Below are positions 3,001 through 51,000 of a DNA stretch of 64,000 bases, piece after piece. Position numbers: made by a program. How positions within the stretch are numbered: the stretch's first letter is position 1; each line of letters starts with the position of its first letter. Origin of the DNA: Raja brachyura. Lineage: Eukaryota. The stretch spans positions 44,516,001-44,580,000 of the forward strand of contig OY740798.1 of assembly GCA_963514005.1 (NCBI GenBank), written 5' to 3'.

Positions 3001-6000
3001 ACTGTATATATTATTTTTTTTAAGCTAGAAGTCTAATCATTGTTTTTGGAAGAAAAATGTTTTCTACCAGGCCATTTTAAACTCAGGCCTAAATCAAAAT
3101 GGCATGCTACACTCTCCTAACACTACATCAGTTTGCAGTTGGTGAAATCTATGTCCATTTGCAAGGAATTACCTCCCGATTTCCCAAGAAATCCCCATAC
3201 CAAATATATTTTGCAAATAGTTAAATTAATATATATATTTTCATCTTACTAGGAATCAGCATATACCAGAAATTTGCATATTGTTCAAGTAGTTACATGA
3301 CCAATAACGTCCTCCCAATAATTGTTTTGAATTATTTCTTCTTGATGGTATCAATCACCGTTTGTTCAGCTAGATAATTCCCCAGAATCTTCTTTCCTCA
3401 CCAAGGATCATGTCGCTACTCTCTGTGGTTGGTATTGTGTATGTTCCACAACTCTTATTCTGTTGTCCTTATGTGAATATTTTTCTGTTTTTATAAAATC
3501 TGATAACACCCATCACACACAAACACAAAAAAAAACTTTCCATAAAAATTTTTGTTGCAGTTATGGTCCACTCGAGATTAGCTCCTGGACAGACTTATTG
3601 GATTGTGTCTTATTTTCAGGACTGAAGGGGAGAATGGCCTCTCATTTCTCCTCGTCCCCAGACCCTGACTGCTGATCTCTAATACTCGTGGAATCAAGCA
3701 GCACGGATGCAGGCCCTTTGGCCCAACTCATTTCTGCTGAGCATGATTCCCATCTAAGCTAGACACCTTTGCCTGAATCCAAGCTCTGCCAGAACTCAAT
3801 GAGTTGCCTCGACAAAAAAAAGTTGAAAAATAAAGCTGGCGTAATTCTGGTGGTGAGACCTGTTGGGATGATGTATTATCGACTCATCAATTAACACAGT
3901 GAAATAATGAACTGCACATTCCTTCAGCATGTTTCCTCCATCTTCCACCCATCCATTTAATCACATTTAATTTGGATAATGCATGCATTTCCACAATACT
4001 CACAGCTACATTTTTGCTGGTAGCAGCACTTGGATTTGTCATAAACCTTTCTGGGTTGCAGTCCATTTTGACAAACGATTGGTTTAACACTTGGACATTT
4101 CACTGACTTCACGGAAACAGTGTTATTCCCTTTGCATGTTGCCTTTGTGCAATTGTCCAGTTTCCAAGTCTCATTCATCTATGGTTCGTGGGGGGCAGGG
4201 GAAATGAACAATTGTAAGAAGTTAAGGCATTCACAGAATCCCTGAGGCTGGAGAAGGAGAAAACAACTACCACCCAACCAGACCTGAATCTCATTGTGCC
4301 AAGAACCCATTGAGATCTGAACCTTCAATTCCAATAAGGTCAGAAATAGTGCGGGGATGTGGCAGGGCAAAGAATCTCATGGGGATGGTTAAGAGACCTT
4401 CAATATATTATGGGGGTGTTCCCTTAAAATATCTATACCATTTAGACCCATAAATGTGACACAGGGATGAAAACCAATGAGCTCATTAGAGTCTTCTAAA
4501 GACATGTGTGATAAGTCTAATAGGTCAAGAAAACCAATCAGTTTAATCGAGGATGAACAAAAATTATTTGATAGGAAAAGGATGGCAAAACATGCTGATA
4601 TTTATCGGTTTTATTAAAATTGGATAACCCCCATCACCCATAAAAAACCCAGTTATGGTGCACTTGAGATGGGCTCTTGTGATGAGCTCCTTTGGTTTTG
4701 GGGGAGGTGGACCTCAATGATATTTTGAGAAGAGAGGGAAGCATTTACGTTTGTAAGGGAAATGACAGAAAAATAGAAAGAATATCATGGAAGGGTTACA
4801 TGGGGATTAGAAGGCCAGGGACAGCCAGGTAGGAGATATTCAGTAAAGAAGGGATAGGCGAGAAGCAATGAGCAGAGGGCCAGAATGTAGCTGGACATAT
4901 TTTATATCTCAGTAATCTGGGAATTCACTGGGTCGGGGGGAAACACTAAAACATGGGGTTTCATCGCATGCTGTGTCTGTTGCAGCAAAATCAAGAGCCT
5001 GAGCATCATATGTCACTGAGAGGCCCCTACAACATGTGGCTGGTAGACTGCACTGGTGCGGAATGCATAGAGGAAAGACTTTGGTTTGCCTTTGTCTGGG
5101 AATGAGTCCTGGTGGACTGTAGGTGAGGTGCGCCCCCTTCAGGTGAGGGTTGTCTACAGGTGGCTGGGGTGTTTGGGATTGGATGGCCTACCATAGCCTG
5201 GGTCGAGGGAGGAGGGACAAGGCTGCGGGGGGTGGGGGTGTACTTTCCTGGTCCATGGTGAAGGGGTTTGTATAGGGGCTGGCAGTAGGGCTGGCTGCCA
5301 GTTGTTATGTTGCTGGCTGGGAGAGGTGCTGTAAAGATTCATGAAGTAATGAGATTTTAGAGGACTCAGTGACTTGGGTTCCCAGCTGGTTGGGGAAGCA
5401 TCTCCTCACAGCAGCTGCAACAGCGGTAGATTGTTGACTTGCAGCGCCAGAGACCCGGGTTGGAACCTGACTACGGGTGCTGTCTGTACGAAGTTTGTAC
5501 CTTCTCCCCATGACCATGTGGGATTTCTCTTGGTGCTCCAGTTTCCACCCACACTCCAAAGATGTACAGGTTAGTAGGTTAATAGGCTTTGGTAAAGATT
5601 GTAATTTGTTTCCGGTGTGTAGGATAGTGTAAGTGTACGGGGTGTTTGCTGGTGGGTGCGGACTTGGTGGGCCGAAGGGCCTGTTTTGACGCTGTATCTC
5701 TAAAATTAAAAACTAAAAAAACGAATCGCCTTTTGGATAGGCACATGGAAGTGCAGGGAATAGACTTTGGATATGGATCATGTACAGGTAGATGAGAACA
5801 GTTTTATTTGGCTTCATGTTTCGGCACTAACATTGGGGCTGAAGAGCTTGTTCCAATGCTGTACTATTCTATGTTCTAAAGACCCCTGATGTCACGAGGA
5901 TACTCACAGCTCTCGGTGGGTGCAGGTCTGGGCAACCACTTGCTGGTACTGTTGTTGTTGGCGCTGATGTGGTTGGTAAAGTGGAAGTGGAGACTTCGCA

Positions 6001-48000: not shown

Positions 48001-51000
48001 CACATGAACAGATTGTAGTTCCTTTTGATGTTGGTGTTACTGTCACCGTTGTAGATGCTGGTGTTGTGGTTTCTGTTGTTGTAGATGTAGTTTCACATCT
48101 TCCTGTGTACTTCAGAACTTCACAATCCTCAGTACACAGAGTAACGTTACAGAGGCCTGATATACCTGCAGACGTCACTGTTGCCTGACCTGGAGGCAAA
48201 GTAATGAAAATCAGGTTGTGTACACCTGAATGTAATAAAACCATGAAATATCTGTATCTCCGCTAATGAAGCTGCTATTGCACTTGGTAGCTTTTGGACA
48301 TCGGTGTTTTCAGGGAACTGCTGGACTCATTATTTTCGAGACATTTCCCAGATATAGTGATGGCTGCTTAAGGACTCACGTGTACCTTAATATCAGTTCT
48401 CCAAATTCTCTTTCCAGACACTAAGTTTCACAATATTCCAAGATTCTTCTGAGATTTGGAACAACACCAACAGCCACCATGTAGACAAACACACACTAGG
48501 CGCAGGAACTACCTCTCAAATCCAATCCGCCAGTCATAGTGTTCTACAGCATGGAAACTCATCCAAGCTAACCAAATTACCTAATTGAATGTCCCATTTA
48601 CCTGTGTTTGGCCCATAATCATTTGAAACTTTCCCATGTACCCACCAGTCCAAATGTCTTTTAAGCCACAGTTTGATTCCTACTGTTATGATCTAATTAC
48701 CTAATATAACAGCTAATTTATTATATTATTAAACATTATTGTTTATTGCAAATTTGTTTGTTGTATTGTTGTGTTTAATGTGCCTATAAAGCCTCAGGAA
48801 GTAACAGTTTCAGTGTCCAGTCCTTATGAATATTATAATTAAACAATCGCGACTCTTGCTTTCTATGTTGTAATTATACCCTCCTGTACCACTTCCTTCG
48901 GCAGCATGCTCCACATACTCACCAGCCTTTAATGCATTTTTAATACCTCTTCAGTTTAGTTTAGTTGAGAGATACAGTGCAGAATGAGGGCCCTTTGGCC
49001 CACTGGGTCTGTGCTGACCAGCATTCCCTGCACATTAATGCCCACTAGGGACAATTTTTACATTTACCAAGCCAATTAACCTACAAAACTGCCCGCCTTT
49101 GGAGTGTGGGAGGAAACCGAAGATCTCAGAGAAAACCCACACAGGTCACGGGGTGAACGTACAAACTGCGTACAAATAGCACCCATAGTCGGGATCGACC
49201 CCAGGTCTTTGGCGCTGCATTCGCTGTAAGGCAGCAACTCTACCACTGAGCCAATAAGGTCATGTCTGTTATTTCTGTGATTTTAAATCACTCTCCCATC
49301 TACCCATTGTAATTTTTCAACTCTCATATCTTGTCCTGAATCTATCTCCCTCTGCTTTAGTAGATAGAAAATCTCCACTTCCACTGTTTTAAGAAAGAGA
49401 GAATCTTGTTTCTTTGAGAGAACAAAATCATCTCCAATCAGAAATGAGAGACTTATTTTAAATCAGATCCCTTGTCATTTTTAAATGTAGAGAAATCAGT
49501 GAATCAGGGAAGGTCAATGTGTTCATGGAAAGCAGCTGATGGACAATATGTGTCCACTGTTCCACAATGGGTATTCTCACACCAGAGTGAGTTTTATGAA
49601 CACAGTTTTTCTGCCATTGGTGATTATCATTGTACCCTGTTTCCGTGAACAAACTCAGAAGTGTGCAAAGGAAAGGCAAGCTGCAGTTTTCATGGGCATA
49701 ATTGGAGACAGATGATTGATGACAATTTGTGCAAACTACAATGTGTACTGAAGAATACTGCAAAACATAATCAAAAGCAAGAGAGAGAAAATAGTGCATG
49801 GTCACACTAATTGGGAAGGACCCAGAAATAATGATCAAGATTTGACAATCAAGATTTGTTAATAGAATACAATTAAGTAATGAATTAATTAGCAAAATTA
49901 CCTGGTGATAATATCTTCCCTTGTACTGTGCACGAGCATGTTGTTGTTGGTACGGTGGTCGTTGATGTGGGTTGGGTTCGTTCAGATGAAGTTTCAGTGG
50001 TAGTTGTGGTTGTGGCTGTCACTGTAGTGACTGGAGTTGTTGAGGTGGTCAGCAGTGGTTCTGTCTTTGGCACGGTGGAGGCAGTTGTGGTTGGGCTAGA
50101 TGTTGTGGTGGTGACTGTTGTCGGTAAGGTGGTGGTTGATGTTGGTTGGGTTGTTTCCGATGTGGTTTCAGTGGAGGTTGTAGTGATGCTATGTGTAGTG
50201 ACTGGAACTGTTGTAGTGGTGACTGTTGTCGGTACGGTGGTGGTTGATGTTGGCTGGGTTCTCTCGGGTGTAGTTTCAACGGAGGTTGTAGTTGTGGTGC
50301 TGTGTGTAGTGACTGGAGTAGTGGTGGTAGCTGTTGTGGGAGAAGTTGTCGTTGATGTTGGCTGGGTTCTGTCGGGTGTAGTTTCAATGGAGGTTGTAGT
50401 GATGCTATGTGTAGTGACTGGAGTAGTGGTGGTGACTGTTGTTGGTAATGTGGTTGTTGATGTTGGCTGGGTTCTGTCGGGTGTAGTTTCAATGGAGGTT
50501 GTAGTTGTGGTACTGTGTGTTGTGACTGGAACTGTTGTAGTGGTGACTGTTGTTGGTAATGTGGTGGTTGATGTTGGCTGGGTTCTGTCGGGTGTAGTTT
50601 CAATGGAGGTTGTAGTGATGCTATGTGTAGTGACTGGAGTAGTGGTGGTGACTGTTGTTGGCAAGGTGGTTGTTGATGTTGGCTGGGTTCTCTCGGGTGT
50701 AGTTTTAATGGAGGTTGTAGTTGTGGTGCTGTGTGTCGTGACTGGAACTGTTGTAGTGGTGACTGTTGTTGGCAAGGTGGTTGTTGATGTTGGCTGGGTT
50801 CTCTCGGGTGTAGTTTCAATGGAGGTTGTAGTTGTGGTGCTGTGTGTCGTGACTGGAGTTGTTGAGGTGGTCAACAGTGCTTCTGTCTTTGGAGCGGTGG
50901 AGGCAGTTGGGCTAGATGTTGTAGTGGTGACTGTTGTCTGTGAAGTGGTTGTTGATGTTGGCTGGGTTCTTTCAGGTGTAGTTTCAATGGAGGTTGTAGT

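What the first reader, a model, noticed from the sequence alone, without database searches (positions are those of the whole stretch)
5908..49940. Mucin with a 30-copy 'beads-on-a-string' array of a 6-Cys module that is single-copy in mammalian MUC2/MUC5
Seen: splicing joins CxC-x3-G-x3-PG at each exon end to Q..C-x4-C-x3-C-x8-C at the next exon start. This gives 30 consecutive modules separated by ~27-aa Thr-rich linkers; the 28 array exons alone add 5970 nt (1990 aa). Known, from memory: human MUC5AC, MUC5B and MUC2 have one module with this Cys spacing between the last PTS and the pre-D4 VWC-like segment. The exon at 5908-6092 is that canonical-position copy. Inference: the module was amplified into a ~2000-aa segmented rod of small disulfide-bonded domains and short O-glycosylated spacers, replacing much of the usual PTS/CysD core. 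I do not know this architecture from the literature, but I cannot exclude that it has been reported.
Basis: partly seen in the sequence, partly recalled or inferred. Interest (0 to 1): 0.85.

Follow-up and report, generated by a model that had tools for sequence, protein, structure and literature searches.

The report
Skate mucin with thirty cysteine beads
A skate-like gel-forming mucin gene strings about thirty small disulfide-locked domains between sugar-coated linkers, one exon per repeat, a layout also predicted in sharks, rays and frogs that I could not find described in the papers I searched.

Summary
On the minus strand, 29 of 29 array exons have AG/GT splice sites, phase 1-1 and lengths of 213, 216 or 219 nt. 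The first 28 sum to 5970 nt. With the PTS exon end (49902) and exon 5908-6092 they give 30 N-halves and 30 C-halves of a 44-aa six-Cys module, separated by 27-29-aa Thr-rich linkers.

The gene is a MUC2/MUC5-family gel-forming mucin: D3, one PTS exon, the array, VWCN, then VWD4. No CysD was found.

The core is 11 tandem units of 2342 bp, two exons each, 98.7-99.8% identical.

The layout is not unique. Predicted proteins of Narcine (16), Leucoraja, Chiloscyllium, Rhincodon, an unnamed species (19) and Xenopus tropicalis (6-8) carry the same arrays. A teleost has one copy.

The module has no Pfam family. It is probably a fibronectin-type-I-like mini-domain, related to 4-Cys arrays in invertebrates.

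I found no paper describing it. The mammalian single-copy claim and transcription were not tested.

Verdict: real, and a new variant of the known Cys-domain-interrupted mucin design.

The parts
56444..63363 (-). Exons of the D3 assembly (VWD3, C8-3, TIL3/E3) of the mucin. Exact splice sites were not determined; these are ORF limits.
   Evidence: ORF translations are. Pfam finds VWD and C8. The 59569-59883 ORF matches the D3 of MUC2, MUC5B and MUC5AC in the PDB, E 1e-24 to 1e-47.
49902..51749 (-). Single large exon. It starts with the D3-terminal Cys segment (51598-51747) and continues with about 550 aa of Thr-rich PTS built from 108-111-bp repeats. It ends with the first N-half of the module (CSCTVQGKILSPG).
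   Evidence: ORF. Tandem repeats at 50100-51452. Acceptor, donor. The D3-terminal segment matches MUC5AC D3 structures at E 4.5e-19.
14428..48189 (-). Array exons 1-28, each 213 or 216 nt and phase 1-1. Each codes for a C-half of a module, a 27-28-aa Thr-rich linker and the N-half of the next module.
   Evidence: 28 of 28 have AG/GT and the lengths sum to 5970 nt. dN/dS between diverged exon types is mostly 0.3-0.65.
19426..45188 (-). Core tandem block of 11 complete genomic units of 2342-2343 bp. Each unit is a B-type exon, a 659-660-nt intron, an A-type exon and a 1257-nt intron.
   Evidence: pairwise identity 98.68-99.79%, mean 99.18%.
8893..9111 (-). Exon 29 (219 nt), a strongly diverged array exon (46% identity to the Leucoraja repeats).
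5908..6092 (-). Exon 30. It holds the C-half of the last (canonical-position) module, a short PTS, and the first Cys of VWCN (GCPDLHPPRA).
   Evidence: for the splice sites. The orthologous stretch is seen in Scyliorhinus P0008 and Rhincodon P0033.
3957..4178 (-). VWCN (pre-D4 VWC-like domain) exon. ORF limits only; splice sites were not determined.
   Evidence: PDB sequence search matches the MUC2 C-terminus (7QCL, 7QCU, 7QCN) at E 9e-11 to 1.5e-9. The domain name comes from passages of PMC10082768.
3..2851 (-). VWD4 exons (ORFs 2525-2851 and 3-215). The gene runs off the window.
   Evidence: Pfam VWD at E 2.1e-16 and 1.9e-4.

Best explanation
This is a real gene feature. It is the central region of a MUC2/MUC5-family gel-forming mucin of a skate-like batoid. 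A small six-cysteine module normally sits once between the last PTS and the VWCN-D4 assembly. Here it has been multiplied to 30 copies.

Each repeat is one symmetrical phase-1 exon, so exons can be gained, lost or skipped without breaking the frame. The array grew, and is kept uniform, by unequal crossing-over or gene conversion of a 2.34-kb two-exon unit.

The module is most likely a fibronectin-type-I-like all-beta mini-domain. Its four core cysteines are shared with invertebrate 4-Cys modules, and vertebrates have one extra pair.

The protein is therefore a rod of about 2000 aa. It alternates 44-aa disulfide-locked, mostly unglycosylated beads with 27-aa densely O-glycosylated spacers.

Inferred, not shown: the beads do what CysD domains do in tetrapod MUC2/MUC5. 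They interrupt the glycan brush with folded, protease-resistant knots. These could offer sites for non-covalent chain-to-chain or partner contacts and so set gel properties. Copy number would tune rod length.
For: Shown:
- 29 of 29 exons have intact AG/GT sites, phase 1-1 and all Cys positions kept. The flanking half-modules are in the PTS exon and exon 30.
- The mucin context holds: D3, PTS, VWCN and VWD4 are present.
- There are 11 units of 2342 bp at 98.7-99.8% identity, introns included.
- A-type and B-type exons are 83.6% identical in DNA. Their introns share only four short patches of 25-125 nt.
- dN/dS is 0.39 for A versus B and 0.13-0.28 against exon 29, where dS could be estimated.
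- Database gene models use the same junction (...PG|QA.V.S...): Leucoraja P0002, Narcine P0001, Chiloscyllium P0005 and Rhincodon P0033.
- On a tree of 103 repeats, repeats group by species. The window's A and B types each pair with a Leucoraja repeat (SH-aLRT 88 each).
- The teleost P0035 has one module before VWCN.

Fold:
- hhalign of the module profile A2 against Liolophura P0027 gives 95.6% probability, E 1.2e-8. P0027 carries Pfam Fn1_2 at 79.5 bits.
- A2 against Dendronephthya P0034 gives 96.6%, E 6.8e-10.
- The control against the window's own 550-aa PTS gives 0.04%.
- AlphaFold2 with 16 rows gives modules pLDDT about 80-90 with five beta strands each, and linkers below 40.
- FnI pairs lead the Foldseek PDB list.
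- Atlas structural neighbours are VWD/C8 mucins, VWC proteins and tPA with fn1.

CysD is absent: 0 of 149 ORFs matched, and none was found in P0004.
Against: - No transcript or peptide evidence was available. Database models may be ab initio, and several are visibly mis-joined (P0004, P0033).
- Within the young 2342-bp units, exons are not significantly less variable than introns: 7 of 426 versus 57 of 1917 columns, Fisher p = 0.14.
- One exon pair (E2 versus E28) has dN/dS of 1.49.
- The fold assignment is not significant by Foldseek: 0 hits at E <= 0.001 in both searches.
- No Pfam family reaches the elasmobranch module, either as single exons or in the database proteins.
- PDB sequence searches found nothing for the module.
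- The first structure model was poor (mean pLDDT 41.9).
- The functional analogy to CysD is inference only.
- The exact copy number in a 99%-identical tandem array depends on the assembly.
Confidence: 0.62

Rival explanations
1. Assembly artefact: the tandem array, or its copy number, was produced or inflated by mis-assembly of a highly repetitive region.
For: Units are 98.7-99.8% identical over 2342 bp. Such arrays are hard to assemble.
Against: Units are not identical. Sixty-four alignment columns vary, and the variants are shared between subsets of units. The array has diverged exons at both ends (exons 1, 2, 27-29). Independent genomes show arrays of 16 (Narcine P0001) and 19 (P0003) modules. 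The window has no N.
Confidence: 0.05
2. Cassette or decaying exons: most array exons are skipped or alternatively spliced, so the mature mucin carries far fewer than 30 beads.
For: All exons are phase 1-1, so any subset can be skipped in frame. Database models of relatives contain only 3-9 modules in full-length-like models (P0004 has 9, P0033 has 3). Exon versus intron variability within units is not significantly different.
Against: 29 of 29 splice sites and reading frames are intact, and all Cys are kept. dN/dS is below 1 for most diverged pairs. Exons are conserved between types where introns are not. The short database models are visibly mis-joined rather than evidence of skipping.
Confidence: 0.12
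3. The module is a derivative of the D-assembly E/VWC-type segment that ends D3, not of the pre-VWCN module, and it belongs to the VWC superfamily rather than to FnI.
For: The D3-terminal segment (51598-51747) has the same spacing, C-x-C-x3-G-x5-G-x12-C-x4-C. BLASTP against P0002 gives E 0.008-0.01 over 39 ungapped residues. hhalign gives E 8.4e-4. The best local Foldseek superposition is a NEL VWC piece (9oz6_A: TMt 0.65-0.68, rmsd 2.6-2.7 over 39 columns). The Atlas neighbours include VWC proteins.
Against: The hhalign probability is only 23.8%. Pfam VWC does not match the modules. The canonical-position copy and exon 29 are much closer to the array exons (46-49% identity) than the D3 segment is (26-28%). 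FnI and the N-terminal VWC sub-domain are themselves similar small beta folds, so this is partly a question of naming.
Confidence: 0.2
4. The beads are mainly a multivalent binding platform, for example for microbial adhesins, collagen-like partners or lectins, by beta-strand addition as in fibronectin FnI modules. They are not passive structural spacers.
For: The evidence is by analogy. FnI pairs bound to collagen and staphylococcal peptides top the fold search (3ejh, 3cal, 2rky). Thirty identical copies would give high avidity.
Against: No binding evidence of any kind exists. The fold matches are not significant. An N-glycan sequon sits inside 16 of 29 exons' module halves and may mask a surface.
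Confidence: 0.2

Closest known systems
CysD-interrupted PTS regions of tetrapod MUC2, MUC5AC and MUC5B
   Same: A gel-forming mucin whose O-glycosylated central region is broken up by repeated small Cys-rich folded domains. The position between D3 and D4 is the same (Lang et al. 2016, PMC4948705, passages read).
   Different: The domain is another one: 44 aa with 6 Cys and no WxxW, against CysD (Pfam Mucin2_WxxW). There are 30 copies spaced every 71 aa. I recall about 2-9 widely spaced CysD copies; that figure was not checked. Each repeat is its own exon. CysD is absent here.
Predicted 'intestinal mucin-like protein' / Mucin-2 of Xenopus tropicalis and X. laevis (P0013, P0025, P0026, P0012, P0024)
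   Same: A homologous six-Cys module in tandem with PT-rich linkers, directly upstream of VWCN-VWD4.
   Different: There are 5-8 copies in the models. Identity to the elasmobranch module is only 28-37%. The N-half reaches Pfam DUF7210 there (31.1 and 29.6 bits against a cut-off of 27) but not in the elasmobranch modules. The repeats form a separate clade (SH-aLRT 100).
Single pre-VWCN module of a teleost intestinal mucin-like protein (Salvelinus alpinus, P0035)
   Same: Same module at the same position, followed by a short PTS, VWCN and D4. The C-terminal part matches MUC2-C 7QCU at E 9e-166.
   Different: One copy only.
Invertebrate arrays of 4-Cys FnI-like modules with PT-rich linkers (Dendronephthya 'mucin-5AC-like' P0034, Liolophura 'kielin/chordin-like' P0027, and unnamed P0011, P0014-P0016, P0018, P0021)
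   Same: The same beads-on-a-string layout. Four Cys, the Gly and the PG align in register. hhalign gives 95.6-96.6%.
   Different: There are four Cys instead of six. No VWD/C8 mucin frame was seen in the parts I read. Linkers are of variable length. The names are automatic.
Fibronectin type I module strings (for example 2-3FnI, 4-5FnI, 8-9FnI)
   Same: Small two-sheet beta modules in tandem. They are the top Foldseek targets. Pfam Fn1_2 is present in the relative P0027.
   Different: FnI modules abut each other without glycosylated linkers and have 4 Cys. Neither fn1 nor Fn1_2 in Pfam matches the window-type module.
Peritrophin-type invertebrate mucins (chitin-binding Cys domains alternating with Thr-rich linkers), as in hit P0010
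   Same: Alternating Cys-domain and mucin-linker design.
   Different: The domain is unrelated. That it is a chitin-binding type is my recollection and was not tested. It is not a VWD-type polymer.

Membership tests
Gel-forming mucin of the MUC2/MUC5 type | D3 assembly (VWD-C8-TIL) upstream of the central region | tested here: met
   Pfam finds VWD and C8 on the exon ORFs. PDB matches to the D3 of MUC2, MUC5B and MUC5AC at E 1e-24 to 3e-47. The D3-terminal segment matches MUC5AC at E 4.5e-19.
Gel-forming mucin of the MUC2/MUC5 type | PTS (Pro/Thr/Ser-rich, repetitive) domain | tested here: met
   A Thr-rich ORF of about 550 aa with 108-111-bp tandem repeats.
Gel-forming mucin of the MUC2/MUC5 type | Fourth VWD assembly preceded by VWCN | tested here: met
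   The VWCN exon matches MUC2-C at E 9e-11. Pfam VWD matches two downstream ORFs.
Gel-forming mucin of the MUC2/MUC5 type | CysD (Mucin2_WxxW) domains within the PTS | tested here: not met
   0 of 149 ORFs from the introns, one repeat unit and the PTS region match it. It is not listed for the full-length relative P0004. Lang et al. report that some frog mucins also lack it.
Gel-forming mucin of the MUC2/MUC5 type | N-terminal D1-D2-D' and C-terminal VWC/cystine knot | not testable with these tools
   These lie outside the window. The relative P0004 has VWD x3, C8 x4, TIL and VWC.
MUC2 proper | Extra cysteine in VWCN (C4379) that makes an intermolecular disulfide | tested here: not met
   The alignment shows window ...WKLDNC... 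against MUC2 ...WWLCDC.... The role of C4379, next to L4378, comes from passages of PMC10082768.
Fibronectin type I (Pfam fn1 / Fn1_2) | Profile match above the curated cut-off | tested here: not met
   No fn1 or Fn1_2 match at E <= 0.1 for P0002, P0004, P0008, P0012, P0013 or P0025, nor at E <= 1 for the window exons. The link is indirect only, through P0027.
Fibronectin type I (Pfam fn1 / Fn1_2) | Small all-beta fold with two disulfides (1-3, 2-4) | tested here: inconclusive
   The AF2 model has five strands per module at pLDDT 80-90. FnI pairs rank first in Foldseek, but at E 0.018-0.6, and 0 hits reach E <= 0.001. Four of the six Cys align with the invertebrate four. Disulfide pairing was not determined.
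VWC (PF00093) | Profile match; ten-Cys pattern with C-terminal CCxxC | tested here: not met
   No VWC match on the modules. In P0004 the listed best VWC stretch lies at 2928-2992, C-terminal of the array. The module has 6 Cys and no CC pair.
Pfam DUF7210 (PF23843) | Profile match above 27 bits | tested here: not met
   It is met only by the N-half of the Xenopus modules (P0012 31.1 bits, P0025 29.6 bits) and by P0027 (91.5 bits). There is no match for Leucoraja P0002 or for the window exons.

The most novel reading that the evidence does not exclude
There is an undescribed, ancient family of FnI-like 'mucin bead' domains, with four Cys in cnidarians and molluscs and six Cys in vertebrates. It repeatedly builds beads-on-a-string arrays with O-glycosylated linkers. 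In elasmobranch MUC2/5-type mucins it has taken the place of CysD. There it makes up about 2000 of the roughly 2600 residues between D3 and D4. It evolves by unequal crossing-over of a two-exon unit, so bead number is probably polymorphic and tunes mucus mechanics.
Probability: 0.35. Interest if true: 0.65.

Novelty: new variant of a known kind. Interest (0 to 1): 0.5.

Why it matters
Mucin models are built on mammalian MUC2/MUC5, where CysD is the only folded element inside the glycan brush. Here a different, much smaller domain fills that role at very high density, in one of the oldest jawed-vertebrate lineages.

The one-exon-per-bead structure makes copy number easy to change. This gives a natural series (1 copy in a teleost, 6-8 in frogs, 16-30 in rays and skates) for testing how non-glycosylated knots set mucin length, stiffness and cross-linking.

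It also gives a name and a likely fold to the orphan module before VWCN, which is not part of the solved MUC2 C-terminus.

Finally, it flags that current gene models of these mucins are truncated or mis-joined.

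Tried and rejected
- **PDB sequence searches for the module:** array exon, exon 30 and Leucoraja P0002. No meaningful match.
- **Pfam:** on single exons and on database proteins holding whole modules. No family for the elasmobranch module.
- **First AlphaFold2 run, 8-row alignment:** mean pLDDT 41.9. Too poor to use, so I repeated it with 16 rows.
- **Foldseek on both models:** no hit at E <= 0.001.
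- **Atlas search by features:** no usable hit.
- **Exon versus intron variability within the 2342-bp units:** not significant, p = 0.14.
- **Tandem Repeats Finder:** cannot see the 2342-bp period because its longest period is 500.
- **Orthology to MUC2 versus MUC5AC/5B:** left open. One D3 exon scores highest with MUC2. The D3-terminal segment matches only MUC5AC. VWCN lacks the MUC2-specific Cys.
- **Literature searches**: no description of the array.
- **Genome contigs:** not used, because it holds prokaryotes only.

Full report
**Observation.** The gene lies on the minus strand. A pattern scan of the three minus-strand frames found 29 units. Each begins Q..C-x4-C-x3-C-x8-C and ends CxC-x3-G-x3-4-[PA]G.

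All 29 of 29 are flanked by an AG acceptor and a GT donor (mostly CAG|GTAAGT). All are phase 1 at both ends. Lengths are 213 nt (26 exons), 216 nt (2 exons) and 219 nt (exon 29). The first 28 sum to 5970 nt, or 1990 aa.

The large PTS exon ends at 49902 with CSCTVQGKILSPG and a GT donor. Exon 5908-6092 starts after an AG and carries the last C-half. This gives 30 N-halves and 30 C-halves of a 44-aa six-Cys module. Linkers are 27-29 aa with 14-18 Ser/Thr.

I did not build, search or fold a joined (spliced) model of the window's exons. Each exon was searched on its own. Analyses that need a whole module used database proteins returned by the searches.

**Context.** Upstream ORFs (56.4-63.4 kb) encode VWD3, C8-3 and TIL3. 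The PTS exon (49902-51749; acceptor) opens with a Cys segment that matches human MUC5AC D3 structures at E 4.5e-19. It continues with about 550 Thr-rich residues made of 108-111-bp repeats.

Downstream of the array lie a VWCN exon and two VWD4 ORFs. The VWCN exon matches the MUC2 C-terminus at E 9e-11. The name VWCN comes from passages of PMC10082768.

The VWCN lacks the extra cysteine that PMC10082768 describes as MUC2-specific. One D3 exon scores slightly higher with MUC2 than with MUC5B or MUC5AC. I therefore call it a MUC2/MUC5-family mucin and leave orthology open.

No CysD was found. Of 149 ORFs sampled from the introns, one repeat unit and the PTS region, 0 matched any Pfam family above its curated cut-off. 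The remaining units are about 99% copies of the sampled one. The full-length relative P0004 has VWD, C8, TIL and VWC but no Mucin2_WxxW.

The window is not human. The nearest named relative is Leucoraja erinacea, with 89% identity on one exon.

**Genomic repeat.** Between 45188 and 19426 there are 11 complete units of 2342-2343 bp. Each holds a B-type exon (...IMSPG), a 659-660-nt intron, an A-type exon (...IMLPG) and a 1257-nt intron. Pairwise identity is 98.68-99.79%, mean 99.18%, introns included. Such identity points to recent amplification or continuing homogenisation.

Within these young units, 7 of 426 exon columns and 57 of 1917 intron columns vary. The difference is not significant (Fisher p = 0.14).

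Older comparisons do show constraint:
- A-type and B-type exons are 83.6% identical in DNA without gaps. Their introns share only four short patches.
- dN/dS is 0.39 for A versus B, 0.13-0.28 against exon 29 where dS could be estimated, and 0.35-0.67 for most other pairs.
- There is one exception, 1.49 for E2 versus E28, a pair with few differences.

The array ends are irregular, with introns of 745, 1827, 2719, 765 and 5316 nt.

**Relatives.**
- *First search.* A word-indexed search with one exon among proteins of 126-2000 aa found 2 proteins among 1005 candidates. They are Narcine bancroftii 'mucin-2-like' (P0001) and Leucoraja erinacea LOC129705929 (P0002). Both use the same ...G|Q... junction.
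- *Exhaustive search.* phmmer with P0002 against 1.84 billion representatives gave only 22 proteins at E <= 0.001, 9 at E <= 1e-10 and 6 at E <= 1e-30.
- *Module counts, strict pattern.* Full six-Cys modules number 16 in P0001, 19 in P0003, 9 in P0004, 5 in P0013, 3 in P0005, 2 in P0002 and 1 in P0008. The other 16 of the 23 proteins examined have none.
- *Names.* Two further searches supplied names: P0005 is Chiloscyllium plagiosum mucin-2, P0008 is Scyliorhinus torazame, P0033 is Rhincodon typus mucin-5B-like, P0013 and P0025 are Xenopus tropicalis, P0026 is X. laevis, and P0035 is Salvelinus alpinus.
- *Module counts, slightly wider pattern.* P0025 has 6 modules, P0024 has 8, P0033 has 3 and the teleost P0035 has exactly 1, just before VWCN.
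- *Model quality.* Several models are plainly truncated or mis-joined. P0004 jumps from the array to VWD4. P0033 jumps from D3 into the array. P0002 ends in intron read-through.
- *Tree.* On a tree of 103 repeat units (46 distinct), repeats group by species (Narcine SH-aLRT 97, P0003 93). Xenopus and elasmobranch repeats separate at 100. The window's A type groups with Leucoraja repeat 2 and its B type with Leucoraja repeats 1 and 3 (88 each). So the two-exon unit is older than that split. The tree has few columns and many unresolved forks.

**What the module is.** No Pfam family matches the elasmobranch module, either as single exons or in whole database proteins. In Xenopus the N-half reaches DUF7210 (31.1 and 29.6 bits against a cut-off of 27). 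PDB sequence searches find nothing. The solved MUC2 C-terminus begins at VWCN.

The weaker hits are invertebrate-type proteins. They carry 4-Cys modules (C-x3-G-x4-PG...C-x4-C...C) set between PT-rich linkers. Two relatives carry names: Dendronephthya gigantea 'mucin-5AC-like' (P0034) and Liolophura sinensis 'kielin/chordin-like' (P0027). P0027 carries Pfam Fn1_2, a fibronectin type I domain, at 79.5 bits.

Profile comparisons of the three-module alignment A2 gave:
- 95.6% (E 1.2e-8) against P0027;
- 96.6% (E 6.8e-10) against P0034;
- 0.04% against the window's own PTS, a control for Thr-rich bias;
- 0.15% against the VWCN exon;
- 23.8% (E 8.4e-4) against the D3-terminal segment, which has the same Cys/Gly spacing.

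In the 16-row alignment, the four invertebrate Cys align with the second, third, fourth and sixth Cys of the vertebrate module. The first and fifth Cys are therefore a vertebrate addition.

AlphaFold2 with that alignment gives each module five beta strands at pLDDT about 80-90 and linkers below 40. An 8-row run was poor, at mean pLDDT 41.9.

Foldseek against the PDB has no hit at E <= 0.001 in either run. Fibronectin FnI pairs head both lists (E 0.018-0.6). A 41-residue NEL VWC piece superposes best locally (TMt 0.65-0.68). The Atlas's structural neighbours of this stretch are VWD/C8 mucins, chordin-like 2, VWCE and tPA with fn1.

Together this makes an FnI-like or N-terminal-VWC-like mini-domain the best reading. 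It is not proven.

**How it most likely works.**

Shown:
- Each bead is one symmetrical exon.
- The beads alternate with Thr-rich spacers.
- The array is homogenised within species.

Inferred:
- Unequal crossing-over of the two-exon unit changes bead number in frame.
- The spacers are densely O-glycosylated and extended.
- The beads are disulfide-locked and largely bare. An N-x-S/T sequon is present in 16 of 29 exons and is missing from the A type.
- They act like CysD domains, as folded interruptions of the glycan brush that resist proteases and offer contact sites.
- A multivalent binding role by beta-strand addition, as in FnI, is a live alternative.

**Novelty.** The design, Cys domains interrupting a mucin PTS, is known. 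What appears new is the domain, its density, its exon structure and its spread across elasmobranchs and frogs, with a single copy in a teleost and 4-Cys kin in invertebrates.

I found no description in any of these:
- passages of Lang et al. 2016 (PMC4948705);
- passages of the shark-skin proteomics paper (PMC10707392);
- passages of the MUC2-C paper;
- the listings of eight searches.

The supplementary domain figures of Lang et al. could bear on this claim.

**Left open.**
- Transcription and splicing of the array.
- The mammalian single-copy claim.
- The exact copy number.
- Disulfide pairing.
- The tissue of expression.

Noticed in passing
window 51598-51747 (-): The Cys segment that ends D3 matches human MUC5AC D3 structures very closely (70.5 bits, E 4.5e-19). 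It matched no other mucin in that search. It has the same C-x-C-x3-G-x5-G-x12-C-x4-C spacing as the array module.
   Followed up: partly
window 3957-4178 (-): The VWCN exon reads ...WKLDNC... where MUC2 has ...WWLCDC.... So the extra cysteine reported to cross-link MUC2 C-termini is absent here.
   Followed up: partly
window 50100-51452: The PTS exon is built from 108-111-bp (36-37-aa) tandem repeats, with higher-order periods of 213-216 and 384 bp.
   Followed up: no
window, 14 places (e.g. 9583 +, 12019 +, 51850 +, and 11 of the 1257-nt array introns on the minus strand): A short interspersed element whose translation reads G[EV]TQ[QR]V.Q..LW recurs in 14 places. The same read-through forms the last ~55 residues of the Leucoraja model P0002. 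That model's C-terminus is therefore intron, not protein.
   Followed up: partly
window 13972-14427 and 46560-47015: The 456 nt upstream of exon 28 and of exon 2 are 98% identical. The two ends of the array therefore share a segment that the core units lack. This hints at a larger duplication or conversion event.
   Followed up: no
window 15622-18340 (intron between exons 26 and 27): This intron is 2719 nt instead of 1257. Its first 789 nt are only about 87% identical to the core intron. It holds a 95-aa plus-strand ORF (16994-17278) with no Pfam match. It looks like an insertion, but the source is unidentified.
   Followed up: partly
array exons, A type versus B type: B-type exons keep an N-F-T sequon inside the module (CNFTLC). 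A-type exons have CNFILC and lose it. Sixteen of 29 exons carry a sequon, so beads may alternate between N-glycosylated and bare.
   Followed up: no
database proteins P0004, P0033, P0007: Public gene models of the orthologous mucins are mis-joined. P0004 goes from the array straight into VWD4. P0033 goes from VWD3 into the array and skips D4. P0007 contains intron-derived stretches between array exons.
   Followed up: partly
hits P0011, P0014-P0016, P0018, P0021, P0027, P0034: These are invertebrate-type proteins made of many 4-Cys modules (GC-x3-G-x-[FW]Y-x-PG ... GWCYG..C ... W[DN].[FW].C) separated by Pro/Thr-rich linkers. Most have no Pfam family. Only P0027 reaches Fn1_2 and DUF7210.
   Followed up: partly
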